DNA from: Candidatus Daviesbacteria bacterium
Lineage (GTDB): Bacteria; Patescibacteriota; Microgenomatia; Daviesbacterales; UBA10151
DNA length: 61,390 nt
Assembly (NCBI GenBank): GCA_016176335.1
Contig: JACOXI010000005.1
Coordinates: 1 to 61,390 of the forward strand
Reading direction: 5' to 3'
Shown piece by piece: positions 5,829-60,368 of the stretch. Within the stretch, counting starts at the first letter, position 1; each line of letters opens with the position of its first letter. The notes beneath the pieces were generated by a model. The model was not told the origin of the DNA, did not search any database, and saw nothing but the letters and a program-made list of their open reading frames with translations. Both the position numbers and the translations under genes were made by a program.

Positions 5829-5883
5829 AATTTTACTCCTTCGACTGCGCTCAGGACAAGTCCTTTTTGTGGGTAATTTCCAG
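5829..5883. repeat. 55-bp direct repeat R1 containing a REP-like palindrome
   Basis: AATTTTACTCCTTCGACTGCGCTCAGGACAAGTCCTTTTTGTGGGTAATTTCCAG; near-identical to 6521-6576. Confidence 0.9.
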
Positions 5884-5983: not shown

Positions 5984-6502
5984 CTAGACCCTCTCCACAA
6001 ATTCTCTTAATTTGTTAAAATTTATATACTTATCTGCAGCCCTTAAAAGTTCAAAAGAGACATGGCCTTTTGAGGAGATTACTACCACTTTTTTATCCTT
6101 ACTTTGCAAGTATCTTACCAAGGCATGAAAATCACTGTCTCCGCTCATCAAAATTGCGGTTGAGTAAAATTTTAGGTCTTTAACCGCATCTATAGTCAAC
6201 TCTACATCTAGATTACCCTTCTTTAAAACAGTTCCGTCAGTCTGTCTTATTAATTTAACTTCCTTTGTTCTTATTTTATAACCCCACTGTTTTAATTTTT
6301 TAAAGAAACCTTGCTGCTTTTTATCATCTTTTAAATATGCAAAGTAGAAGTACACATTATCTAACTGATAATTACTTTTAAAATAATTCATCAACTTTTT
6401 AAAATCTATTTGCCATTTCAAAGTCCTTTGGGAATAAATTACGTTTGCGGCATCGATAAATACTGCAGCTTTGGTAGATTGACGGTAGATAATCTTTCTT
6501 AT
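5984..6502 (-). CDS. NYN/LabA (PIN-like) domain protein; start uncertain
   Basis: KKGNLDVELTID and ILMSGDSDF motifs; the frame extends upstream of the tracked TTG (6421) through AAVFIDAAN, with no ATG/GTG/TTG; ATA 6502 is a tentative start. Confidence 0.8.
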   Translation of the reverse strand: MRKIIYRQSTKAAVFIDAANVIYSQRTLKWQIDFKKLMNYFKSNYQLDNVYFYFAYLKDDKKQQGFFKKLKQWGYKIRTKEVKLIRQTDGTVLKKGNLDVELTIDAVKDLKFYSTAILMSGDSDFHALVRYLQSKDKKVVVISSKGHVSFELLRAADKYINFNKLREFVERV

Positions 6503-6520: not shown

Positions 6521-6576
6521 AATTTTACTCCTTCGACTGCGCTCAGGACAAGGTCTTTTTTGTGGGTAATTTCCAG
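6521..6576. repeat. Direct repeat R2 (56 bp)
   Basis: Differs from R1 only around AAGGTCTTTTTTG vs AAGTCCTTTTTG. Confidence 0.9.
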
Positions 6577-6790
6577 ATTGGAAGTGGCAATTTTTAGGAC
6601 TTTTTGATGAAAATTACCACCCTTTTAGTTTTTTAAACCACATCTGATGCAGAGGACGTTAAAAAATCGCAGTATTTGCGACTCAGGGGAAACACAAACT
6701 GACCGAACATAGTGAGGGAATTTGTGAGGGGTAAAGTCCCCGAGGAGCAAAGACAAGATTTTAGTCCGAACATCACTTGTGGGAGTTTTG

Positions 6791-6846
6791 TCACACTTTT
6801 GCGACTCGCCTCGCTGTCGCTTGGGCGAAGCGGGCCAAAAGTGTGA
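6791..6846. repeat. Long hairpin with a GC-rich REP-like core
   Basis: TCACACTTTTG ... CAAAAGTGTGA perfect 11-bp arms around CTCGCCTCGC/GCGAAGCGGG. Confidence 0.75.
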
Positions 6847-6871
6847 ATGAAAAAATACTTTTGGGGAATAT

Positions 6872-6900
6872 TTGCTTTGTGGGAAACCCTGTGGTATACT
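6872..6900 (+). promoter_or_regulatory. Promoter for the helicase, implying a ~190-nt 5' UTR
   Basis: TTGCTT-17-TATACT with TG extension. Confidence 0.65.
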
Positions 6901-7089
6901 ACTTTTAGTTGATTTAAGAATCTTAAGCTATAGATTATTTTCCGAAGGAAAACAGTCGTTTTGTGAAGCAAAAGGTATATTTTTTCCTCAAGGACTAGAT
7001 TTTTCAAGTAGCTCCTATCCTGAACATCATCGAAGGATTTTTCTTTTTTCAATTTATTAATTGTTCTTCTTCATCCTCTATTTATTAAG

Positions 7090-21472: not shown

Positions 21473-23020
21473 TCATTCCCATTCCATGGTGGCAGGAGGT
21501 TTGTTGGTGATATCATAAACCACTCTGTTTACTTCTTTTACTTCATTAACAATTCTGGTTGAAATTTTATCCAAAAGTTCATATGGCAGTCTGGCAAAAT
21601 TGGCAGACATGGTGTCTTTGGCCTCAATTGCTCTTATGGCCAAAGTTTGCCCATAAGCTCTGTTATCTCCCCTAACTCCTGTTGTTTTAATTCCTGTTAA
21701 AACTGCAAATGCTTGCCAAAGTTTAATATCTTTTAATTCATCGGTAACAATCGCATCTGCTTTTCTTAAGATATCCAGTTTTTCTTCTGTTACTTCTCCA
21801 ATAATTCTTACTGCCAACCCTGGACCTGGAAAAGGCTGTCTTTGAGTGATACTTTCAGGAAGTCCCAAAATTTTTCCAATTTGCCTTACTTGATCTTTAT
21901 AAAGTTGTCTCAATGGTTCTATTAATTTTAGTTTCATATCTAGCGGAAGTCCACCAACATTATGATGGGATTTAATTGTTTTTGAATGTTTGGATCCTGC
22001 AGATTCTATCACATCAGGATAAATTGTTCCCTGAACCAAAAATTTAGCATGTATTTTTTGGGCTTCTTTTTCAAAAACTTCAATAAAAACTTTTCCGATT
22101 ATCCTTCGTTTCTGCTCAGGATCTACGACTTTTCTTAAATTCTTTAGAAATAAATCCTTGGCATCAACTATTTGAACATTCATTTTGTAATGATCTTTAA
22201 AAACTTTTTTCAAATTTTCTGTTTCCCCTTCTCTCATTAACCCGGATTCCACATAAATAGAGGTCAGATTTTTCCCAATTGCTTTGTGTACTAACAGTGC
22301 TGCAACAGATGAATCCACTCCACCAGACAAAGCACAGATTACTTTTCCATTTTGGACAGATTCTTTGATATCTTGAATAATATTCTCCACAGAATCTTGA
22401 TCTATCCCTGATCTTTTTGGAGTTAGTCCACAAATTTTTAGAAAGTTTTCCAAAATCTGCATGCCAAATTGGGTATGCACCACTTCCGGGTGAAATTGAA
22501 TTCCATAAATTCGCATTTTTTCATTTTCTATTACTGCATGAGGAATTGTTTCTGTAGTGGCAACAGTTTCAAATCCCGGTGGAACTTTCACCACTTCATC
22601 TCCATGACTCATCCAGATAGTTGATTCTGATGGAATATTTTTTAACAACTGTCCACTGTTGCCTGTTGCCTGTTGCCTTAACACCGCTCGTCCATATTCT
22701 TTCTTAAATCCAGGCTTCACCTCACCCCCTAATAGATGACACATCAATTGCTGCCCATAACAAATTCCCAAAATGGGAATTCCTAACTCAAAAATCTTTT
22801 TTTCCAAAGTCGGTGCACCTTTTTCATAAACAGAAGCAGGACCGCCAGAAAATATTATTCCATCCACCCCACCGTCATCCTGAACTTGCCCGCCCTGAGC
22901 GAGGTCGAAGGGTTTCAGGATCCCCTCTGGTTCAACTACCTTAACTTCCACTCCCAGCTCTCTAATTCTTCTGGAGATTAAGTGCGCTGTCTGTGATCCA
23001 AAATCAACTAAAATAATCAT
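21473..23020 (-). CDS. guaA: GMP synthase (glutamine-hydrolysing)
   Basis: DFGSQT, GICYGQQ, QFHPEV, SGGVDSS, HHNVGG, KPPATMEWE; two in-frame repeat inserts. Confidence 0.98.
   Translation of the reverse strand: MIILVDFGSQTAHLISRRIRELGVEVKVVEPEGILKPFDLAQGGQVQDDGGVDGIIFSGGPASVYEKGAPTLEKKIFELGIPILGICYGQQLMCHLLGGEVKPGFKKEYGRAVLRQQATGNSGQLLKNIPSESTIWMSHGDEVVKVPPGFETVATTETIPHAVIENEKMRIYGIQFHPEVVHTQFGMQILENFLKICGLTPKRSGIDQDSVENIIQDIKESVQNGKVICALSGGVDSSVAALLVHKAIGKNLTSIYVESGLMREGETENLKKVFKDHYKMNVQIVDAKDLFLKNLRKVVDPEQKRRIIGKVFIEVFEKEAQKIHAKFLVQGTIYPDVIESAGSKHSKTIKSHHNVGGLPLDMKLKLIEPLRQLYKDQVRQIGKILGLPESITQRQPFPGPGLAVRIIGEVTEEKLDILRKADAIVTDELKDIKLWQAFAVLTGIKTTGVRGDNRAYGQTLAIRAIEAKDTMSANFARLPYELLDKISTRIVNEVKEVNRVVYDITNKPPATMEWE
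22649..22676. repeat. In-frame heptamer tandem in guaA
   Basis: CTGTCCA (CTGTTGC)x3, encoding RQQATGNSGQ. Confidence 0.85.
22874..22923. repeat. Nested REP-like palindromes in frame in guaA
   Basis: Outer GTCATCCTGAACTTG...TTTCAGGATCC; inner 24-nt CCCGCCCTGAGCGAGGTCGAAGGG at 22889-22912. Confidence 0.85.
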
Positions 23021-23796: not shown

Positions 23797-26579
23797 GGAA
23801 ATATCTCCTTCATAGGTTTCGTCCATGCTTTTTGTAATCTATCAATATCAGCAGAAAACAATTTATCAACAACCAGTTTTTCTTCCTTGATAGTCTTTCC
23901 TAAAATCTTAAACTGTACTCCATTAAATAATTTTTTAGCTATTGTTTCATTTTCTACCTCAACAATAAAACATCCTGCTGTTTCTAACAGTAACTCTTCA
24001 GCATTTGCTTTTATATTGACTCCATTGTTTCCCCCAACACACATATCAAAAATGGCAGTTATTAATCCCCCCTCTGAAACGTCATGAGATGCTAGAACTT
24101 TTCCACTGATAATTGCCTTGTGCATTTTTTCCAAAACCTTAGGTAAAACCTTTAAATAAACTTTTAAATCTTGCTTGCCAACCAAAACAATGGTCGATCC
24201 TACCTTTTTAAAATCAGAAGAAACAGTTTTTTTAACATCTGGAATTTTGCCAAAAACCGAGATACAAACTGTTGGCGGACTATGAATTATGACCCCACTG
24301 GATCCTCTGTATGTAGCGGATAAACTATCTTTTCCTGAAATCACCGGAATCTTTAAAGTCTTCATAAAATCACAAACTGCCGTCACAGATGCATCTAACT
24401 TTCCTAACCATTCCTCAGAAGGATTCGGCCAAATGTAATTGTTAATAAGCGAGGCATTTTTAAAGTCTCCTCCAACTGCAACATAGTTTGAAATGGCTTC
24501 TGTAGCAGACCAGATAGTTCCCCAATAAGGGTCTTCTTTTGTTAATTTAGGGTTCAGGCCATGAGATACGACTAAACCATATGGTTTTTCCAGAATTGGT
24601 TTGATAATTGCTGCATCTTGTGGCCCATCTAAACCAACTCCTGCAAAAGGAGGAAGAACATTTGTTCCCTGTACTGTATGGTCATACATTCTTAAAATGG
24701 GCTCTTTAGAATTGCTGTCACCACCTGATAACGTTTCTTCTAAGAATTTTATCCATTCTTTTTCTGTTGATGGAGTTTTAATTTGTTGGTTTTGTCGTAG
24801 ACCTTGAGCGACCGAAGGGAGTCGAAAGGCCTTCATTACTCTTTGTGGTAATCCACTATGCAAAAATTTCATCTCTAAGTCACCGACTTTCTCTCGACCA
24901 AAGTAAACTTTCAATCTTTTGCTCCCATCATATTCTGCTAATTCTTTAGCCTCTACATTATATTTTTTACAAATTTCTAAAAATTTTCTTAGATTCTTTT
25001 TAGTAAGAATTATTAACATTCTCTCTTGAGATTCAGAAAGGAAAATTTCCCAAGGAGCCAAACCTTGATACTTAAGCGGCGCTTTTTCCAGATGAACTTT
25101 CACCCCAATTTCCGCTCCTGTTTCCCCGATGGCAGAAGAAAACCCTCCGGCTCCTAAATCCTGCACTACCCTTATTAAATCTTTATCTCTGGCCTCAAGT
25201 ATGACATCAAAAATTCTTTTTTCCTCAATGGCATTTCCTATTTGTACAGCTTGAGCGTTTACAGAAATGGTTCTTTCTGTCATTTCACCAGATGAAAAGG
25301 TGGCGCCATGTATCCCATCTCTTCCTGTCCTTCCACCAATCACCAAAGCAACATCTCCTACTCTGGGTTTTCCCTTTTTAGCTTTTGCTTTTGGTAAAAT
25401 TCCATATGCCCCAACTAAAACAATTGGTTTTGCTCTAAAGTCTTCATGAAAATGAAAGGAGCCATTATTTGTGGGGATTCCTACTCTATTGCCATAATCC
25501 CGGACAGCGTAAACTACGCGTTTTAACATATAGTCTGGTGGCAAGGTTCCAGGAGGTAATTTACTTTTATCCATATCAGGTGGGGCAAGACAAAATATAT
25601 CTGTTGATACTAAAGCTTTTGCTCCTTGTCCTGTGGCCACCACATCTCGAAACACTCCACCAGACCCTGTCATGGCTCCTCCGTATGGTTCTATTGCTGA
25701 TGGGGCATTGTGAGTTTCCGCTTTACCGTTTATTGCCCATCCTTCATAAAAATCCATAACTCCGGCATTATCAATAAATGCTGAAACAATATTTTTGTTA
25801 TATTTCAATGCTTCTTTTTTTAATCTTGTAAATAGTGGTTCTTTTTCCTTACCATCTAAAATTATTTTTGCTTTAAAAGTTTTATGGGCACAATGCTCGC
25901 TCCAAGTTTGGGCTAAAGTCTCAAGTTCCAAATCTGTTGGATCTCTTTTAATCTTTTGAAAGTAATTTTGAATAGTTTTCATTTCCTCTAAATTCAGGAA
26001 AAGCTGATCTTGAGAAAGTTCCAAAAGATCGCTATCAGTCATCCGGCGTAGCCGGATCACATTTGTTTTTCCTGGGGTACCTTTTATGAGAAGAGTTTTT
26101 GGTTCTTCTGTTACGAAATGTTCAACCATTTCATTAAGAAGATGAAGTTTCTTGGCAATTTCCTCAATTTCCACCCTGAGCGAACTTGTGGAGAGCGTAG
26201 TCGAACCAGTCGAAGGGCCATAAAAGCCATACTCATGTGATGAATCAGCTGCAATCAGTTTAATTCCTAAATCCTCTGCAGTTTTTAGGATTGAGCCGAC
26301 TTCGGGATTCATGACACCAGGTTTGTAAGCTATCTCAAAAACTAGCTGACTACCCAGAATAGGCGCATTTAAGGTATATTTTTGGTAAATACTTTCACAA
26401 AAAACTTTCTCTGCTAAAACTTTGGCGTCTTTTTCGCTTATCCCCTCAAGTCTATAAACTTTTGCACTTTCAACCTGTGTTACACCTTTTTGCCCAAGAG
26501 TATGATGAATATCATGAAGTATCCCCTCCCCAACTAGATCTCTACCTATAATTGTTTTAACTCTTATTGTATGTATCAT
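23793..26579 (-). CDS. purL: FGAM synthase subunit PurL with a PurS-like N-terminal extension
   Basis: QTWSEHCAHK, ETHNAPSAIEPYGGA, QDLGAGG, SESQERM, SGKDSLS, HDVSEGG. Confidence 0.96.
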   Translation of the reverse strand: MIHTIRVKTIIGRDLVGEGILHDIHHTLGQKGVTQVESAKVYRLEGISEKDAKVLAEKVFCESIYQKYTLNAPILGSQLVFEIAYKPGVMNPEVGSILKTAEDLGIKLIAADSSHEYGFYGPSTGSTTLSTSSLRVEIEEIAKKLHLLNEMVEHFVTEEPKTLLIKGTPGKTNVIRLRRMTDSDLLELSQDQLFLNLEEMKTIQNYFQKIKRDPTDLELETLAQTWSEHCAHKTFKAKIILDGKEKEPLFTRLKKEALKYNKNIVSAFIDNAGVMDFYEGWAINGKAETHNAPSAIEPYGGAMTGSGGVFRDVVATGQGAKALVSTDIFCLAPPDMDKSKLPPGTLPPDYMLKRVVYAVRDYGNRVGIPTNNGSFHFHEDFRAKPIVLVGAYGILPKAKAKKGKPRVGDVALVIGGRTGRDGIHGATFSSGEMTERTISVNAQAVQIGNAIEEKRIFDVILEARDKDLIRVVQDLGAGGFSSAIGETGAEIGVKVHLEKAPLKYQGLAPWEIFLSESQERMLIILTKKNLRKFLEICKKYNVEAKELAEYDGSKRLKVYFGREKVGDLEMKFLHSGLPQRVMKAFRLPSVAQGLRQNQQIKTPSTEKEWIKFLEETLSGGDSNSKEPILRMYDHTVQGTNVLPPFAGVGLDGPQDAAIIKPILEKPYGLVVSHGLNPKLTKEDPYWGTIWSATEAISNYVAVGGDFKNASLINNYIWPNPSEEWLGKLDASVTAVCDFMKTLKIPVISGKDSLSATYRGSSGVIIHSPPTVCISVFGKIPDVKKTVSSDFKKVGSTIVLVGKQDLKVYLKVLPKVLEKMHKAIISGKVLASHDVSEGGLITAIFDMCVGGNNGVNIKANAEELLLETAGCFIVEVENETIAKKLFNGVQFKILGKTIKEEKLVVDKLFSADIDRLQKAWTKPMKEIFP
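24802..24829. repeat. REP-like palindrome in frame in purL
   Basis: CCTTGAGCGACCGAAGGGAGTCGAAAGG, encoding FRLPSVAQG. Confidence 0.8.
26174..26217. repeat. Mosaic REP-like palindrome in frame in purL
   Basis: CCCTGAGC...GAGCGTAGTCGAACC-AGTCGAAGGG, encoding PSTGSTTLSTSSLRV. Confidence 0.8.
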
Positions 26580-30722: not shown

Positions 30723-31985
30723 TTAGGTAAGGATTCTTTCAAAATTATCAATTTTTTTGAAAGGGCCAATCACTTGTAAATTAAATTTCTCTTTTACAAA
30801 TAATTCTCTCGCAATCTTTTGAATATCCTCAACTGTGACATTTTCGATATTTTTTAAATATTCCTCAAATGTTTCTATTTTACCCTCCAAAACAAAATTA
30901 GTGCCAAAATATTCTGCTAAAAAATTTGTTGATTCACTGTGCAAAGCGATTCTACCTCTGATCATTTCTTTAGCTTTTTTCAACTCCTCACCCGAAACTT
31001 TCTCCATTACTGTCCGTATTAACTCTGCATATATAACCTCTAATCCTTCATATACCTTTTCCAGTTTTAATCCTGCATAAGCTGTAAAAGTACCTGTATC
31101 CAAATAACAATTATTACTGGCGCTAACACGATAAGCCAAACCCCTACGCTCTCTCACTTGGATAAATAATCTTGAGGACATACCCTCTCCCAAAATTACA
31201 GATAAAATTTCAGCCGCATATCTTCTATTGTCAAACTTATCAAATCCCTCAACTCCCAGTATTAAATTGGCCTGATCTGTTTGCTTATAAAAAACATTAA
31301 CTTTGGCCTTTGTCTGCTTTGTCTTTTTGAAAGGTTCAAATTTAGTAATCGGTCTTGGCCGTATATCCGAAAAATAATTTGCGGCCAATCTTTCTATATC
31401 TTTTGGCAATCTACCTACATAAACCAATGTCATATTTTTTGAGGAATATAAAGACTCCATATATTTTACAAAATCATCTCTTAAAAATAAGTTTATTGTT
31501 TTTTCATCGCCGCCCAAATCCCAGCCCAAAGGCTGATCACCAAACTGCAACTCCTCATAAAGATCCCAGACCAAACGAGCAGGGATATCGCGAAGCATTC
31601 GGAGCTCTTCAGTAATAACTCCTTTCTCTTTCTCAATTTCTTCTCTTGATAAAAGAGATTCTTTAATCATTGAAGATAAAATATCGGATGCCAATTCTAT
31701 ATTTTTACTTGCGGATTTTATCCAGTAAAAAGTTACTTCCTTTGAGGTTGCCGCATTATTTACCGCTCCAATACCGTCAATCAAACCAGCAATTCTCTCC
31801 GCAGTAGGGAATTTTGCAGACCCTTTAAAAAACATGTGTTCCAGAAAATGTGATATGCCGTTTATTTTTTTGGTTTCATATCTGGAACCGGCTCCGACAG
31901 CAACTAGAGTGGTAACAGAATCCAGATGAGGTAGATCTACAGTAATCAGTGTTAAACCATTTGGTAAAGTTTTTAATCTATGCAT
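30723..31985 (-). CDS. M16-family zinc peptidase
   Basis: HFLEHMFFKG inverted zinc motif; MSSRLFIQVRERRGLAY. Confidence 0.95.
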   Translation of the reverse strand: MHRLKTLPNGLTLITVDLPHLDSVTTLVAVGAGSRYETKKINGISHFLEHMFFKGSAKFPTAERIAGLIDGIGAVNNAATSKEVTFYWIKSASKNIELASDILSSMIKESLLSREEIEKEKGVITEELRMLRDIPARLVWDLYEELQFGDQPLGWDLGGDEKTINLFLRDDFVKYMESLYSSKNMTLVYVGRLPKDIERLAANYFSDIRPRPITKFEPFKKTKQTKAKVNVFYKQTDQANLILGVEGFDKFDNRRYAAEILSVILGEGMSSRLFIQVRERRGLAYRVSASNNCYLDTGTFTAYAGLKLEKVYEGLEVIYAELIRTVMEKVSGEELKKAKEMIRGRIALHSESTNFLAEYFGTNFVLEGKIETFEEYLKNIENVTVEDIQKIARELFVKEKFNLQVIGPFKKIDNFERILT

Positions 31986-34002
31986 AATCTTTCAAATGTT
32001 TGAGCATTTCCGTAACTGTGTCTGCTATATCTAAATTTGTATTATCCAAAACAATTGCATCTTTGGGAATTCTCATAGGAGAAGCTTCCCTTTCGCTGTC
32101 GTATTTATCTCTTTCCATCATATCTTTTAAAACTGCGCCATAAGTTATTTCGGGCTCTTTTTTTAATTGCTTAAATCTTCTCCTAGCTCTTTCCTCCAAA
32201 GAAGCTGTCAGAAAAAATTTAAATTTTGCATCGGGGAAGATTTCGGACCCGATATCCCGTCCGCTCATCACCACTTTTCCATTTTCTGCAATCTTCCTTT
32301 GAGTATCTTTGACTATTTCTCTCACTTGGGGTTTTGCCGCCACAACATATACAAGACTTGAGATTTGGGGTGTATGTAGTTTATCCGTGACATCCTCATT
32401 ATCAAGATACATTTTCCAACCACTTCCGTTTTCAAATTTAATATCCAAATTTTTGTAAATATCCAAAATTTTATCCAACTCATCAGCACTGACATTTTCC
32501 TTCAGCATTCTCAAACATCCGGCCCGAAAAATCATTCCCGAATCAATGTATTTAAACCTTAATTTTTGCGCCAATAAAAATCCGACACTATTCTTGCCGG
32601 ATGAAGTCGGACCGTCAATGGTTATTATATCTTCCACAACTTTTAGCGCGGAGCGCCCCTTGTTTACCACTTTAACCTTCGGACCAGAAGATGTATCTTC
32701 TACCTCAAAACCTAACTTCTTAATTTCTAATCTTTTTTTATCCGACTCTTTGAAATTTCCTTTTTTTCTGGCATTTTCCCGTTCGTTTACTAATTTCATA
32801 ATATTTTCCGAAACTTTTATCTTTTTTCCCAAAATTTCATCAAGTTTTAATCCCAAAATTTTATCCATTTCCAAAATTGTTTTGGCTTTGGCTGATGTGG
32901 GATAATCGGAGCGAACCATATCCCAGAGGATGGCCAAAGCTTGTGGCATTCCCAGATCATTATTTATAGCTTCGACAAAATCCTGTTCAAACTGGGCGCA
33001 CCCAATTTTTGGATCATCCCAATCTCTAATTATTTCCCTTAAATTATTCAAAGCATTTTGGGCAGCTTTTAAAGATTCCCAAGTAAAATTCAATTTATCC
33101 CTATAATGAGCTGTTAAACTAAGATAGCGAAAACTCAAAGGATCAAAGCCTTTATCTTCCAGATCCTTCAGTTTGTAAAAGTTACCTGCAGATTTTGCCA
33201 TTTTTTGACCGCTTACCAGAAGATGTTCCCCTTCTACAAAAAAATTTACAAACTTGTGGGCAGTTTTCCCCTCCGATTGCGCTATCTCGTTTTCATGGTG
33301 GGGAAAAATCAAATCTACCCCGCCCGCATGAATATCGAATGTCTGGCCTAAATATTCCTGGCTCATCACCGAACACTCAATATGCCAGCCGGGCCTGCCT
33401 CTTCCCCAAGGAGAATCATATCCAACCTCATCAAGGTGTACCGCTTTCCATAAGGCGAAATCCACTATATTATCTTTGGTGTATTCATCAGATAAAATCC
33501 TGGTGCCACTTTTTAACTCCCGCTTATCAACACCCGAAAGTCTTCCATAACCTCGAAATTCCGATATGTCAAAATAAACGGATCCATCTTTTTCAACATA
33601 AGCCATACCTTTCTTTATCAGCTCCTCAATATACTTGACCATGTGTCCTATGTGTTCGGTTGCCTTAGGATATACATTTGCCGATTTGATATTCAGTTTT
33701 TCTAAGTCTTTGAAGAATGCTTGTTCATATGGCTTGGAAAACTCATCAATGGGTAAACCTTTTTCTTTTGCTCCCTTGATAATTTTGTCATCAATATCCG
33801 TGATATTCATTACCCTTTTTACCTCAAATCCGTTTGCCTCCAATACCATTTGTAAAACGTCTTCAAAAATAAAAGTCCTTAAATTTCCAATATGGGCAAA
33901 ATCGTATGTGGTGGGACCGCAGGTATACAAACCTACTGTAGGAGGATTCAAAGATTTAAATTCTTCGACGCTTTTGCTTAAATAATTATAAATTTTTAAC
34001 AT
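31978..34002 (-). CDS. cysS: Cysteine-tRNA ligase fused to a C-terminal cytidylate kinase
   Basis: CGPTTYDFAHIGN, DFALWK, PGWHIEC, KMAKS; then ITIDGPTSSGK, YIDSGMIFRA, GRDIGSEIFPDA, RDKYDSEREASP. Confidence 0.93.
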   Translation of the reverse strand: MLKIYNYLSKSVEEFKSLNPPTVGLYTCGPTTYDFAHIGNLRTFIFEDVLQMVLEANGFEVKRVMNITDIDDKIIKGAKEKGLPIDEFSKPYEQAFFKDLEKLNIKSANVYPKATEHIGHMVKYIEELIKKGMAYVEKDGSVYFDISEFRGYGRLSGVDKRELKSGTRILSDEYTKDNIVDFALWKAVHLDEVGYDSPWGRGRPGWHIECSVMSQEYLGQTFDIHAGGVDLIFPHHENEIAQSEGKTAHKFVNFFVEGEHLLVSGQKMAKSAGNFYKLKDLEDKGFDPLSFRYLSLTAHYRDKLNFTWESLKAAQNALNNLREIIRDWDDPKIGCAQFEQDFVEAINNDLGMPQALAILWDMVRSDYPTSAKAKTILEMDKILGLKLDEILGKKIKVSENIMKLVNERENARKKGNFKESDKKRLEIKKLGFEVEDTSSGPKVKVVNKGRSALKVVEDIITIDGPTSSGKNSVGFLLAQKLRFKYIDSGMIFRAGCLRMLKENVSADELDKILDIYKNLDIKFENGSGWKMYLDNEDVTDKLHTPQISSLVYVVAAKPQVREIVKDTQRKIAENGKVVMSGRDIGSEIFPDAKFKFFLTASLEERARRRFKQLKKEPEITYGAVLKDMMERDKYDSEREASPMRIPKDAIVLDNTNLDIADTVTEMLKHLKDYA

Positions 34003-43760: not shown

Positions 43761-43968
43761 TAAAAAAACACCTCCCCTCTTTTAAGGACGAAGGTGTAAA
43801 CTCCGTGGTACCACCTTAATTGTTTCTTATTCAGGTTATCACGTTACTAACGGGAATACTTCCTCCTTCGCCATACTTCGGCTGACAGGCTTCATACCCA
43901 GCTTGGGGCCTTCGGCCCTGAGGGGCTCAGGCCCTCGAAGGGGCGGGAAACCCCTTCATTGCTTTTCT
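43761..43968 (-). promoter_or_regulatory. T-box riboswitch (antiterminator and terminator clear, stem I atypical)
   Basis: AAGGTGGTACCACGG at 43817-43803; CCCGTTA at 43854-43848; hairpin ACACCTTC..GGAGGTGT followed by a U-tract. Confidence 0.75.
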
Positions 43969-44732
43969 TTTCTAATTTTATCAGGATGTTCTTTTGGTGT
44001 CAAATTTGAATCTTCTTTTCTTGTTTCTTGCCTGTTGTCCTGTTTTTGTGACCGTTGTCTTTCTTCCTCCAGTTTTTTCTTGATTTCCTCAAGCCTTTTT
44101 CTGGCTTCTTCTATTTCCTTTCGTCTTTGCTTTTCCTTTTCTTCTTCCTGCCTATTTGGCCTTGGTGTAGGTTCAACAGTAGGAAGCGGGGTTGAAGTAG
44201 GTTGAACAGTTGGGAGTGGCGTTGGGCGGACAGTTGCAACAGGAGTGGCTTTAGGAGTAGGGGAAGGTATTGTTTCAGCAGATGGAGTTGGAGATGGTGT
44301 AATCGCAGGTTGGAGAACAGCTGGTGGAATGCTTGGCTTCGCAGTCAATTGTTGTAATCCTTGATCGTATTTTTCAATAGATTGAGAAAGTTGGTTGATC
44401 AGTTGTTCTTTTTGTTTTTGGTCTGTTATTTGATTAATTTGACCGGCTGCTATATCTGTTTGTACCACCAACTCGTTTAAAGTCTCTTTTGCTTGTTTTC
44501 CCTCTGTTATCAAAACAGTGACTTCCTGAAATCTCCTGTCAGATCTGGCAGCAGCAAACCAAGCCTTGGAAGTTGGAGTCAAAGATGCCACAGCATAGAT
44601 CACATCTTCTAATCCCCGCTTAATCGGGTATGTGGCATCACCAGGTGCCGCATTATTGGAAATAACAGCCAAGGCAGCCGGAGGGAAAAGTACAATTGTT
44701 AAAATTAAACTGATGATACCGAGCAGTTTCAC
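43956..44732 (-). CDS. Secreted helical protein with a P/T-rich linker (DUF5667-like, tentative)
   Basis: Signal peptide, APGDATYPIKRGLE motif, PT repeats, charged tail. Confidence 0.7.
   Translation of the reverse strand: MKLLGIISLILTIVLFPPAALAVISNNAAPGDATYPIKRGLEDVIYAVASLTPTSKAWFAAARSDRRFQEVTVLITEGKQAKETLNELVVQTDIAAGQINQITDQKQKEQLINQLSQSIEKYDQGLQQLTAKPSIPPAVLQPAITPSPTPSAETIPSPTPKATPVATVRPTPLPTVQPTSTPLPTVEPTPRPNRQEEEKEKQRRKEIEEARKRLEEIKKKLEEERQRSQKQDNRQETRKEDSNLTPKEHPDKIRKEKQ
43975..44003 (-). promoter_or_regulatory. Near-consensus promoter for the T-box leader
   Basis: TTGACA-17-TAAAAT with TG extension, inside the 3' end of the upstream ORF. Confidence 0.8.
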
Positions 44733-50122: not shown

Positions 50123-50687
50123 CTGTAGGACTTATTCTACCACCTTGATGCTGACCTCTGTAACTGACAGTTTGCCCTTCAATCTTAAAGAAAACTATGT
50201 TACAAATTCTAGCCCCCATTTGCAGCCTTACATCAAACTCACTCAAATTTTTTAATCCCATGGTAAGAGTTCCTTTGTATCCCGGATCGGTTTTAGAATT
50301 TAACAGCAAAAGTCCTGCTCTAAAAAGAGAGGTTCTGGGGAAAACTACCGGCATTAAATCCTTGGGCGTATTCAGCGACTCCACCGTGGATGCCAAATAA
50401 TACTCGCCTGATTTTATCACAACCCACTGCTGATTTCTTTTCCTCTTCTTAAATTCAGCCAGAACCTGTGTCTTCACACCCCTCCTTTTCCCTAGCACTA
50501 CTTGCCCTGAGCTTGTCGAAGGGTCCCCTTGTATAAATGCTCCACCTTGCACAATTTGATAAACAGCACCCAACCTCAAATCTATCCCTACACCTTCCGG
50601 ATTCTTAAGCTCTCTTTTGCCTAAATTTTTTACAAGAGAATGCTTTTTAATTCTTTTGTGAATTTCGTTAATACCAAGTACGCTCAT
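50103..50687 (-). CDS. dCTP deaminase/dUTPase-family protein
   Basis: [30 protein letters not shown]; start moved to MSVLG. Confidence 0.85.
50504..50523. repeat. REP-like palindrome in frame
   Basis: GCCCTGAGCTTGTCGAAGGG, encoding PSTSSGQ. Confidence 0.85.
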
Positions 50688-60348: not shown

Positions 60349-60368
60349 TCCTGAGCGAAGTCGAAGGA
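60349..60368. repeat. REP-like palindrome in the pyrG leader
   Basis: TCCTGAGCGAAGTCGAAGGA; same family as the R1/R2 core. Confidence 0.85.

What the first reader, a model, noticed from the sequence alone, without database searches (positions are those of the whole stretch)
22874..22923. A palindromic element inserted inside another, in frame, within GMP synthase
Seen: removing the 24-nt inner element rejoins an outer palindrome, GTCATCCTGAACTTGTTTCAGGATCC, and changes the peptide ILK-PFDLAQGG-QVQDD to ILKQVQDD. The inner element belongs to the CCTGAGC..TCGAAGG family seen at 5837, 6529, 24802, 26174, 50504 and 60349. Its length is a multiple of 3. Established: Rickettsia palindromic elements insert in frame in genes. 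Inference: these elements target each other's loops, implying an active mobilisation mechanism not encoded in this window.
Basis: partly seen in the sequence, partly recalled or inferred. Interest (0 to 1): 0.75.

Follow-up and report, generated by a model that had tools for sequence, protein, structure and literature searches.

The report
Nested hairpin repeats inside GMP synthase
In an uncultured groundwater bacterium (Candidatus Daviesbacteria), the GMP synthase gene carries one tiny DNA hairpin repeat with a second 24-base repeat sitting exactly in its loop, both translated into a floppy surface loop; related genes show the empty, single and nested stages, giving before-and-after snapshots of how these poorly understood repeats spread.

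Summary
Window 22873-22924 is CGTC-ATCCTGAA-CTTG[CCCGCCCTGAGCGAGGTCGAAGGG]T-TTCAGGAT-CCC, in frame in guaA (residues 34-49).

- **Allelic series.** Orthologous Daviesbacteria guaA genes show every stage at the DNA level: empty, outer only (exactly the predicted rejoined palindrome, ILKQVQDD) and nested.
- **Outer element.** It fits the published CGTC-tagged REP class, which includes Rickettsia RPE-4 and RPE-6. The identical hairpin lies 8 nt upstream of a small GIY-YIG nuclease gene in another Daviesbacteria genome, as in the Ssn/NTS systems described in 2025.
- **Inner element.** It is a discrete 24-nt unit of a cross-phylum family. It is an imperfect hairpin with tandem G·A mismatches.
- **Loop targeting.** Fourteen more outer-plus-inner composites occur in several phyla. 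They differ in inner subtype and junction. In 12 of 14 tested, window included, deleting one block restores a normal 5-nt loop, so there is no target duplication.
- **Second series.** purL in the same window gives another empty/single/nested series.
- **What is missing.** The window encodes no transposase or nuclease. The mobilising enzyme and current activity remain inferred.

Caveats: the outer replaces native helix codons (net +1 codon), and some composites may spread as preformed units.

Verdict: a real, in-frame, nested variant of a known repeat class.

The parts
21473..23020 (-). guaA, glutamine-hydrolysing GMP synthase, 515 aa; host gene
   Evidence: ORF. Pfam GATase plus GMP_synt_C on the identical cluster, and 120 orthologues named GMP synthase of Candidatus Daviesbacteria. 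PDB GuaA hits down to E = 1e-153.
22873..22876 (+). Unpaired CGTC tag of the outer hairpin
   Evidence: Read directly. T or C precedes GTC in 83 of 105 family copies. Tag as defined in PMC3733652.
22877..22884 (+). Outer 5' arm, ATCCTGAA
   Evidence: Pairs with 22914-22921 (fold).
22885..22888 (+). First four bases (CTTG) of the outer loop CTTGT
   Evidence: CTTGT is the commonest loop of the family, 25 of 82. Orthologues L002 and L003 have the intact loop.
22889..22912 (+). Inner 24-nt unit CCCGCCCTGAGCGAGGTCGAAGGG; encodes P37-G44 on the minus strand
   Evidence: Absent from L002 and L003 and present in diverged form in L001. Family copies. The same unit sits in loops of other hairpins.
22913..22913 (+). 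Last base (T) of the outer loop
22914..22921 (+). Outer 3' arm, TTCAGGAT
22922..22924 (+). 3-nt tail CCC of the outer element
   Evidence: Family tails are CTC, CTA, CCA or CCC. A tail is a stated feature of CGTC REPs.
26174..26217 (-). Second nested composite, in purL: CCCTTCGAC|TGGTTCGACTACGCTCTCCACAAG|TTCGCTCAGGG. An inner-family hairpin carries another 24-nt unit at its apex.
   Evidence: Orthologue L333 has the single unit GTCCTTCGACTACGCTCAGGAC at the same codons. Most PurL orthologues are empty there.
5838..5855 (-). Inner-family copy, intergenic (TGTC-tagged: cttGTCCTGAGCGCAGTCGAAGGag)
6530..6547 (-). Inner-family copy, intergenic; near-duplicate context of the 5838 copy
60350..60367 (+). 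Inner-family copy (CGTC-tagged), intergenic, upstream of the CTP synthase gene
50506..50522 (+). Divergent inner-family copy (CCTGAGCTTGTCGAAGG) inside a dCTP-deaminase-like ORF
24803..24818 (+). Degenerate inner-family copy inside purL (peptide PSVAQG)

Best explanation
The 52-nt stretch is two very small hairpin repeat units, one inside the other, read through in frame.

**Outer unit.** It is a 28-nt CGTC-tagged REP-type hairpin: tag, 8-bp stem beginning AT, 5-nt loop, 3-nt tail. It belongs to the class that includes Rickettsia RPE-4/RPE-6 and the Neisseria NTS/dRS3 repeats. In guaA it occupies the place of the short helix between strands beta2 and beta3 of the glutamine amidotransferase domain.

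**Inner unit.** It is a discrete 24-nt member of the cross-phylum CCTGAGC-N4-TCGAAGG family. It entered the single-stranded loop of the outer hairpin precisely, with no target-site duplication. This happened either in situ or by copying from a composite made the same way elsewhere.

**Effect on the protein.** Together the two units encode a disordered surface loop that the enzyme tolerates.

**Inferred mechanism.** Hairpins extruded from single-stranded DNA expose their loops. These 24-nt units integrate preferentially into such loops. The most likely enzyme partners are small single-domain GIY-YIG (Ssn-like) single-strand nucleases encoded elsewhere, whose genes are flanked by the same hairpins.

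**Shown:** the anatomy, the allelic series, family membership, precise loop insertion, recurrence in many genomes, and proximity to GIY-YIG genes in other genomes.

**Inferred:** the order of events in this lineage, the single-stranded intermediate, the enzyme, and whether the process is still active.
For: **Allelic series in guaA.**
- L002 and L003 carry ATCCTGAA(A/T)CAAGTTCAGGATGAC with no inner block.
- L001 carries the nested form.
- L004, L331 and L332 are empty.
- Of 120 orthologues, 94 are empty and 26 carry hairpin-type sequence at this loop.
- A sister relationship between the two nested alleles is not rejected (p-AU 0.52).

**Outer family.**
- It fits the CGTC REP definition.
- It is abundant, with CTTGT the commonest loop.

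**Inner family.**
- The closing pairs covary.

**Precise loop insertion.**
- In 12 of the 14 composites tested, window included, removing one 24-nt block (27 nt in three) restores a common 5-nt loop.
- The composites have different junctions and inner subtypes and come from Curtissbacteria, Daviesbacteria, Dependentiae, Bacteroidota and metagenomes. This requires several independent nesting events.
- Most composites are intergenic, so the 24-nt length is intrinsic to the unit and not a product of frame selection.
- Counts were 7 nested against 0 adjacent to an intact outer hairpin.
- Flanking stems are enriched six-fold or more over the control.

**Second series, in purL**.

**Protein context.**
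- Residues 41-48 have pLDDT below 50 and lie between strands 26-29 and 54-57.
- Solved GuaA structures lack about 9 residues here.

**Enzyme lead.**
- GIY-YIG (PF01541) ORFs lie within about 100 nt of these hairpins in 6 of 8 independent cases.
- In Daviesbacteria locus L210 the identical outer hairpin lies 8 nt before the ORF.
- This mirrors the published NTS-ssnA-NTS layout. In that work, loop identity was not needed for SsnA cleavage.
Against: - The outer allele is only 1 codon longer than the usual empty allele. It replaces 8 native codons, so it is not a simple insertion.
- Monophyly of the 8 outer-bearing (QVQDD-type) alleles, six outer-only and the two nested, is rejected (p-AU 0.0002). 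This means either repeated acquisition at the same codons or recombination between lineages. I could not tell which.
- About 90% of inner copies are not nested by my measure.
- Five composites (window, L203/L264, L210, L270) share the same junction class and inner subtype, and L203 is nearly identical in sequence to the window's. They may therefore spread as preformed composites.
- No 24-nt indel polymorphism was seen. Only assembler contigs were available, and these drop rare variants.
- The outer does not match the published SRM search motif.
- Ssn enzymes are known only to cut, not to join.
Confidence: 0.75

Rival explanations
1. The composite reached guaA as a ready-made unit. A 45-nt outer-plus-inner composite formed once elsewhere and spreads as such. 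Alternatively, a simple outer hairpin already in guaA was converted to the composite by repair or gene conversion from another composite copy, using the 8-11 nt arms as homology. Under this reading nothing was inserted into the loop at this locus.
For: Composites with the same junction and subtype (CTT[G/A]-CCCGC-CCTGAGC....TCGAAGG-G) occur in the window, L203/L264 (Curtissbacteria), L210 (Daviesbacteria) and L270. Across alleles the outer arms are 23-24 of 24 identical while the flanks are 64-82% identical. This fits homogenisation by conversion.
Against: Other composites have other junctions (after loop base 1, or after bases 3-4) and other inner subtypes (CCTGT-, CTC-, TTAC-, and a 27-nt TGTCAT- type). 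Loops have therefore been hit several times independently. The purL series shows a different host and guest pair. Even under this rival, the first composite still needed a loop insertion.
Confidence: 0.18
2. These are REP/REPIN elements moved by a RAYT (HUH, Y1) transposase, as the first reader suggested checking.
For: There is a general resemblance: short hairpin repeats with an unpaired tetranucleotide tag, and action on single-stranded DNA. RAYT-linked REPs are the best-understood case.
Against: The tag is CGTC/TGTC, not GTAG. Di Nocera et al. found no transposase associated with CGTC REPs. No HUH or transposase domain occurs in any window ORF of 120 aa or more. The only recurrent non-phage neighbouring gene family in the fetched loci was GIY-YIG.
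Confidence: 0.04
3. The sequence is a selected feature of guaA, for example an adaptive protein loop or an mRNA hairpin that controls translation, rather than selfish or neutral repeat DNA.
For: The outer arms are more conserved than the flanking codons. The outer peptide ILKQVQDD has the same hydrophobic and polar pattern as the helix it replaces (AIKIIKET in L331).
Against: 78% of orthologues lack any element here. Sister alleles P0042 and P0050 carry entirely different elements. The same units occur mostly in intergenic DNA of unrelated phyla. The region is predicted to be disordered. The inner block has decayed in L001, with 15 of 24 bases identical.
Confidence: 0.03
4. It is chance, or arose in place: an ordinary coding sequence that happens to contain two inverted repeats, with no insertion.
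For: None beyond the short length of the motifs.
Against: There were 0 matches to the core in 100 shuffles, against 4 observed. The sequence is identical to widespread families. Orthologues lack exactly the 24 nt.
Confidence: 0.01

Closest known systems
CGTC-tagged REPs (Di Nocera, De Gregorio & Rocco 2013, BMC Genomics 14:522, PMC3733652). These include Rickettsia conorii RPE-4 and RPE-6 and Neisseria dRS3.
   Same: An unpaired CGTC/TGTC tag, an 8-9 bp stem beginning with A-T pairs, a 4-5 nt loop and a 3-nt tail. Copies occur inside genes. Some REPs were noted to sit inside other palindromes.
   Different: The host is a CPR bacterium, a group not covered by that survey. The stem sequence ATCCTGAA could not be looked up, because the paper's family consensus sequences are in figures that were not available to me. 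Nesting of one repeat unit in the loop of another, with an orthologous allelic series, is not described there.
Ssn single-strand nucleases with NTS / Ssn-related motifs (Chenal et al. 2025, Nat Commun 16:2388, PMC11893778)
   Same: Hairpin repeats with a directional CGTCAT tag flank small single-domain GIY-YIG genes. The NTS itself (CGTCATTCCCGCG..CGCGGGAATC) is the type of element found at this same guaA loop in alleles P0011, P0049 and P0073, encoding DSRLRGND. In L210 the outer hairpin lies directly upstream of a GIY-YIG ORF. Loop identity is dispensable for SsnA cleavage.
   Different: The outer does not match the published SRM degenerate motif. No ssn-like gene lies in the window, and the genome could not be searched. 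Ssn is shown to cut single-stranded DNA and to modulate transformation, not to move repeats. That paper reports NTS as rarely intragenic (2%), and says nothing about nesting.
Rickettsia palindromic elements (RPE; Ogata et al. 2000, cited here through PMC3733652)
   Same: Small palindromic repeats inserted in frame in housekeeping genes, translated, and tolerated in surface regions.
   Different: A different phylum. RPE-1 is much longer (about 100-150 bp, from my own knowledge). Here the units are 24-28 nt and stacked inside one another.
REP/REPIN-RAYT systems
   Same: Hairpin repeats with a tetranucleotide tag, an associated single-copy enzyme gene flanked by the repeats, and single-strand DNA chemistry.
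   Different: They carry a GTAG tag and use a HUH Y1 transposase. Neither is found here.
Insertion sequences that target REP hairpins (Tobes & Pareja 2006, cited as reference 12 in PMC3733652; IS1397 inserting into loops of E. coli palindromic units, from my own knowledge)
   Same: A hairpin repeat serves as the preferred integration site.
   Different: Those guests are kilobase-sized IS elements that carry their own transposase and make target duplications. Here the guest is 24 nt, has no gene and makes no duplication.

Membership tests
CGTC-tagged REP superfamily (PMC3733652) | Unpaired CGTC (or TGTC/CCTC) motif at one end | tested here: met
   CGTC lies at 22873-22876. T or C precedes GTC in 83 of 105 family copies.
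CGTC-tagged REP superfamily (PMC3733652) | Stem of 8-9 bp with complementary A-T residues in the first and second positions | tested here: met
   ATCCTGAA / TTCAGGAT, 8 bp, starting with A-T then T-A.
CGTC-tagged REP superfamily (PMC3733652) | Loop of 4-5 nt | tested here: inconclusive
   Met in the rejoined form and in orthologues L002 and L003 (5 nt). Not met in the window as it stands, where the loop is 29 nt because of the nested unit.
CGTC-tagged REP superfamily (PMC3733652) | Short unpaired 3' tail (consensus CCA) | tested here: met
   The tail is CCC here. Family tails are CTC, CTA, CCA or CCC.
CGTC-tagged REP superfamily (PMC3733652) | Repeated many times within the host genome | not testable with these tools
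   There is only one outer copy in the 61-kb window. Contig depth rises 10- to 100-fold over 22873-22914 in the source metagenomes, so the repeats are abundant in the community.
Ssn-related motif (SRM) / Ssn system (PMC11893778) | Match to the degenerate SRM search sequence HGTCWYN(0-2)YYVSBRHN(0-5)WNVSBRGN(0-2)RNCYNB | tested here: not met
   Neither the rejoined outer, the window sequence nor inner-type elements match. An NTS control does match. The window has 0 matches.
Ssn-related motif (SRM) / Ssn system (PMC11893778) | The hairpin flanks a small single-domain GIY-YIG (cd10448) gene | tested here: inconclusive
   Met for the family. In L210 (Daviesbacteria) the identical hairpin lies 8 nt upstream of a 97-aa PF01541 ORF, with other TGTC hairpins downstream. 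Five further loci show the same proximity. Not shown for this genome. The cd10448 assignment could not be made, and NCBIfam gave no specific family.
Ssn-related motif (SRM) / Ssn system (PMC11893778) | Cleaved as single-stranded DNA by the cognate Ssn nuclease | not testable with these tools
   This needs biochemistry.
Rickettsia palindromic elements (RPE) | Palindromic repeat inserted in frame in a protein-coding gene whose product stays intact | tested here: met
   guaA is full length with its catalytic regions conserved. The insert lies in a low-confidence surface loop.
Rickettsia palindromic elements (RPE) | Sequence membership in RPE-1 to RPE-10 of Rickettsia | not tested
   No RPE sequences were at hand. 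The link is only through the shared CGTC class (RPE-4, RPE-6) reported in PMC3733652.
REP/REPIN-RAYT | GTAG-type tag and an associated Y1 HUH transposase gene | tested here: not met
   The tag is CGTC. No HUH or transposase domain was found among all window ORFs of 120 aa or more.
MITE | Terminal inverted repeats of an IS plus a target-site duplication | tested here: not met
   Removing one block restores a standard loop in 12 of 14 composites, so there is no duplication. The units are 24-28 nt.

The most novel reading that the evidence does not exclude
The 24-nt CCTGAGC-N4-TCGAAGG units would be among the smallest mobile DNAs known. They would integrate, without target duplication, into the single-stranded loops of other extruded hairpins: REP-type repeats, terminators, and each other. 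Small Ssn-like GIY-YIG nucleases would cut, and host repair would seal. Repeated loop-in-loop accretion would then build composite palindromes. In small CPR genomes it would also write new, rapidly turning-over peptide loops into essential enzymes. This would supply the missing mobilisation mechanism for the CGTC class of REPs.
Probability: 0.3. Interest if true: 0.8.

Novelty: new variant of a known kind. Interest (0 to 1): 0.6.

Why it matters
How CGTC-type REPs spread has been open since they were defined; they 'apparently lack a dedicated transposase'. The 2025 Ssn work raised, but did not test, the idea that the hairpins and their GIY-YIG genes are a domesticated mobile element.

This locus supplies what that question lacks:
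- Orthologous before-and-after sites with exact junctions, in two adjacent genes.
- No target duplication.
- A constant 24-nt guest.
- The hairpin loop as the target.

These are concrete predictions that can be tested with oligonucleotides and a purified nuclease. The locus also shows that in Daviesbacteria one permissive loop of an essential enzyme has been rewritten many times by at least five hairpin families. This is a Rickettsia-like process of protein-segment creation, in a different and very large bacterial radiation.

Tried and rejected
- **Outer elsewhere in the window.** No second copy of the outer, even at 2 mismatches.
- **Generic inverted-repeat search.** It mostly returned AT-rich noise.
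- **Simple GIY..YIG regular expression.** It found nothing in the window or the viral loci. An HMM built from neighbouring ORFs was needed.
- **Genes next to the outer hairpin in viral contigs.** No recurrent family.
- **Nested and adjacency patterns in viral contigs.** All gave 0 hits, so they were uninformative.
- **Reads.** All holders are kept as assembler contigs only. No allele with a precise 24-nt deletion was seen, but absence cannot be concluded. One joint (22782 to 22941, with 119 other letters between) comes from a related organism's allele.
- **Published SRM motif.** It does not match these hairpins.
- **NCBIfam.** It gave no specific family for the GIY-YIG ORFs.
- **Literature.** Searches for in-frame palindromic elements in CPR bacteria found no paper.
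- **One origin for all QVQDD alleles.** Considered and rejected by the AU test.
- **Frame selection as the reason for the 24-nt length.** Considered and rejected, because most composites are intergenic.
Full report
**1. What is there**

guaA is the minus-strand ORF 21473..23020 (515 aa). Its best relatives are GMP synthases of Candidatus Daviesbacteria (CPR/Patescibacteria), at 77% identity or less. The plus strand at 22873-22924 reads CGTC-ATCCTGAA-CTTG-[CCCGCCCTGAGCGAGGTCGAAGGG]-T-TTCAGGAT-CCC. On the coding strand this gives I34 L K | P37 F D L A Q G G44 | Q45 V Q D D49.

The rejoined outer folds as a clean 8-bp hairpin (-6.1 kcal/mol, z = -3.3). The inner block alone does not (z = 0). The inner is a hairpin closed by CCT/AGG around tandem G·A mismatches. 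Covariation of its closing pairs supports this: 69 of 118 variants are complementary, against 7.4 expected. These counts are of copies, not of independent events.

**2. Allelic series in guaA**

Among 120 orthologues, 94 have a plain loop here, usually 25 residues between ELG and SGGP. The other 26 carry hairpin-type peptides.

At the DNA level:
- L002 (P0116) and L003 (P0064) have ATCCTGAA(A/T)CAAGTTCAGGATGAC. This is the reverse complement of the predicted rejoined palindrome, at the same codons and without the 24 nt.
- L001 (P0003) has the nested form. Its inner block has decayed to 15 of 24 identical, while the outer is 23 of 24 identical.
- L004, L331 and L332 are empty.

Holding the two nested alleles together as sisters is not rejected, and even scored a higher likelihood than the free tree (p-AU 0.52).

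Two complications:
- The outer is not a clean addition. In the sister pairs L002/L331 and L003/L332 it occupies the place of 8 native helix codons, for a net gain of 1 codon.
- The 8 outer-bearing alleles (six outer-only plus the two nested) are not one clade (p-AU 0.0002). This means either repeated acquisition or recombination between lineages.

The loop is a hot spot. At least five hairpin families occur there:
- ILKQVQDD
- IRSF..QDD
- DSRLRGND, which corresponds to the Neisseria NTS type
- ..IQND
- DSGLRQND

Other nested states occur in P0042, P0050 and P0088, and upstream of the gene in L001. Sister alleles P0042 and P0050 carry entirely different elements.

**3. Both units belong to large families**

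*Outer.* GTCATCCTGAA-N5-TTCAGGAT occurs in 74 viral-contig stretches. Of 105 matches, 82 have a 5-nt loop, CTTGT is the commonest loop, and T or C usually precedes GTC. This fits, feature by feature, the CGTC-tagged REP class of Di Nocera et al. 2013. That class includes Rickettsia RPE-4/RPE-6 and Neisseria dRS3, and 'apparently lacks a dedicated transposase'.

Recurrent 5' leaders include GCCTGC, GCCTGT, GTTCGC, TGTCAC and GCCCGC; the last is the window's type.

**4. Loop targeting**

- A scan of one genome per species found 8 more outer-plus-inner composites: one each in Curtissbacteria, another Daviesbacteria, Lutibacter, Bacteroidales and Vicingaceae, and three in Dependentiae.
- The capped metagenome scan added 7 nested copies; one of them (L264) is the same Curtissbacteria sequence as genome hit L203. 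It found no case of the inner unit lying just downstream of an intact outer hairpin. A ratio of 1:3 would be expected if placement near the hairpin were uniform.
- In 12 of the 14 composites tested, window included, removing one 24-nt block (27 nt in three) restores a common 5-nt loop. There is thus no target duplication. Insertion points fall after loop base 1 or after bases 3-4, depending on the inner subtype.
- Ten of the 15 further composites (those found outside the window) are not inside an ORF, so the 24-nt length is intrinsic to the unit.
- More generally, 10% of inner copies have flanking inverted repeats of 6 bp or more, against 1.7% in a partner-shuffled control. Some of these hosts look like terminators or GTAG-type hairpins.

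**5. A second series in the same window**

purL carries CCCTTCGAC|TGGTTCGACTACGCTCTCCACAAG|TTCGCTCAGGG at 26174-26217. Removing the middle 24 nt restores the inner-family consensus. The closest orthologue, L333, has the single unit GTCCTTCGACTACGCTCAGGAC at the same codons. Most orthologues are empty there, and P0124 has a larger nested insert. The 'guest' family of guaA is therefore itself a 'host' in purL.

**6. Protein context**

An AlphaFold2 model (mean pLDDT 79.8) puts residues 41-48 below pLDDT 50, between strands 26-29 and 54-57. Solved GuaA structures are about 9 residues shorter here. The insert lies in a permissive surface loop.

**7. Enzyme**

No window ORF of 120 aa or more has a transposase, HUH or GIY-YIG domain. 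The window encodes purine, pyrimidine and lysine biosynthesis genes, translation factors, toxin-antitoxin genes and similar functions. An HMM for small GIY-YIG proteins also found nothing in the window.

In the fetched loci, however, GIY-YIG (PF01541) ORFs were the only recurrent non-phage neighbour of these hairpins. Six of 8 independent ORFs lie within about 100 nt of one. In Daviesbacteria locus L210, TGTC-ATCCTGAA-CTTGT-TTCAGGAT-CTA lies 8 nt before the GTG start of a 97-aa GIY-YIG ORF. This hairpin is the same as the rejoined guaA outer. The 3' end of that ORF overlaps another TGTC hairpin.

This is the NTS-ssnA-NTS layout of Chenal et al. 2025. They showed that Ssn proteins cut single-stranded DNA next to such hairpins, that the loop sequence is dispensable, and that extensions at the loop are tolerated. 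The outer does not match their degenerate SRM motif. I therefore say it works like an SRM but do not file it as one.

**8. Activity**

All sequencing runs that hold this strain are available only as contigs. No 24-nt-deleted allele was seen. Depth rises 10- to 100-fold over the element, and assemblies break there, as expected for an abundant repeat.

**9. Verdict**

The reading that elements nest in each other's loops is supported by two allelic series and by independent composites in several phyla.

What remains inferred:
- the intermediate
- the enzyme (Ssn-like GIY-YIG is my best guess, at about 0.3)
- whether this particular composite formed in guaA or was copied in
- whether the process is still running

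Relative to the literature, this is a new variant of a known kind: CGTC REP/RPE/Ssn-type repeats in a new phylum, with nesting and precise loop insertion.

Earlier notes of this scan report similar nested hairpins and GIY-YIG links in this and other Daviesbacteria genomes. I used them only as leads. One of them pointed me to the CGTC paper.

Noticed in passing
window 26174-26217 (purL, minus strand): An inner-family hairpin carries another 24-nt unit at its apex (peptide PST|GSTTLSTS|SLRV). The closest orthologue has the single unit and most orthologues have none. This is a second empty/single/nested series.
   Followed up: yes
window 6790-6844 (inside ORF 6633..7052, which has no Pfam match): A TGTC-tagged 9-bp stem (ACACTTTTG/CAAAAGTGT) encloses a 34-nt GC-rich hairpin. 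It folds at -20.1 kcal/mol, z = -5.6. This looks like another nested composite, built from different families.
   Followed up: partly
window 43896-43954: A 59-nt GC-rich block upstream of the ORF at 43956..44732 contains CCTGAGG-GGCTCAGG-CCCTCGAAGGGG-type motifs. It looks like stacked hairpin units.
   Followed up: no
window 5838-5855 and 6530-6547: Two TGTC-tagged inner-family copies lie in near-identical ~50-nt contexts on either side of the NYN-domain gene 5984..6421.
   Followed up: no
L079 (P0042) and L201 (P0050), guaA codons after SGGPASV: Both sister alleles share a second in-frame insert, YNAPRYKKRRDIIASD. Its DNA is rich in short palindromes (for example ATCGCAAGCGAT) and is absent from the other orthologues.
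   Followed up: no
L001 1-100 (upstream of guaA of P0003): A canonical hairpin ATCCCGTA-CTTGA-TACGGGAT lies here, followed by an NTS-type hairpin (ATTCCCGC..GCGGGAAT-GAC). The loop of the second holds the perfect palindrome TCGCTTCGCGAAGCGA. This is nesting in a 5' untranslated region.
   Followed up: partly
L202 (P0034) and L201 (P0050), guaA loop: TGTC-ATCCTGAG-[GGCGAAGCC]-CGAAGGAT and CGTC-ATCCTGA-[TCCCGCCTCTGGCGGGA]-GAAGGAT share the same outer frame but have different apical mini-hairpins. GCGAAGC is the classic very stable DNA mini-hairpin (from my own knowledge).
   Followed up: no
window 22873-22914, runs X1, X4, X6, X7: Summed contig depth rises 10- to 100-fold over the element, and assemblies of two samples break inside it. 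These repeats are very abundant in the groundwater communities.
   Followed up: partly
window 31978-34002: A single ORF combines a complete class I CysRS catalytic domain with a cytidylate kinase domain. This unusual fusion was also noted by another first-stage note.
   Followed up: no
L263 3798-5513 and L258 2942-4198 (metagenome loci): The same outer-plus-inner composite lies in frame in long ORFs of other organisms, in the same reading frame as in guaA (ILKQ|SFDYAQDDI|VQDD and ILN|HPSTLLRVK|VQDD).
   Followed up: no
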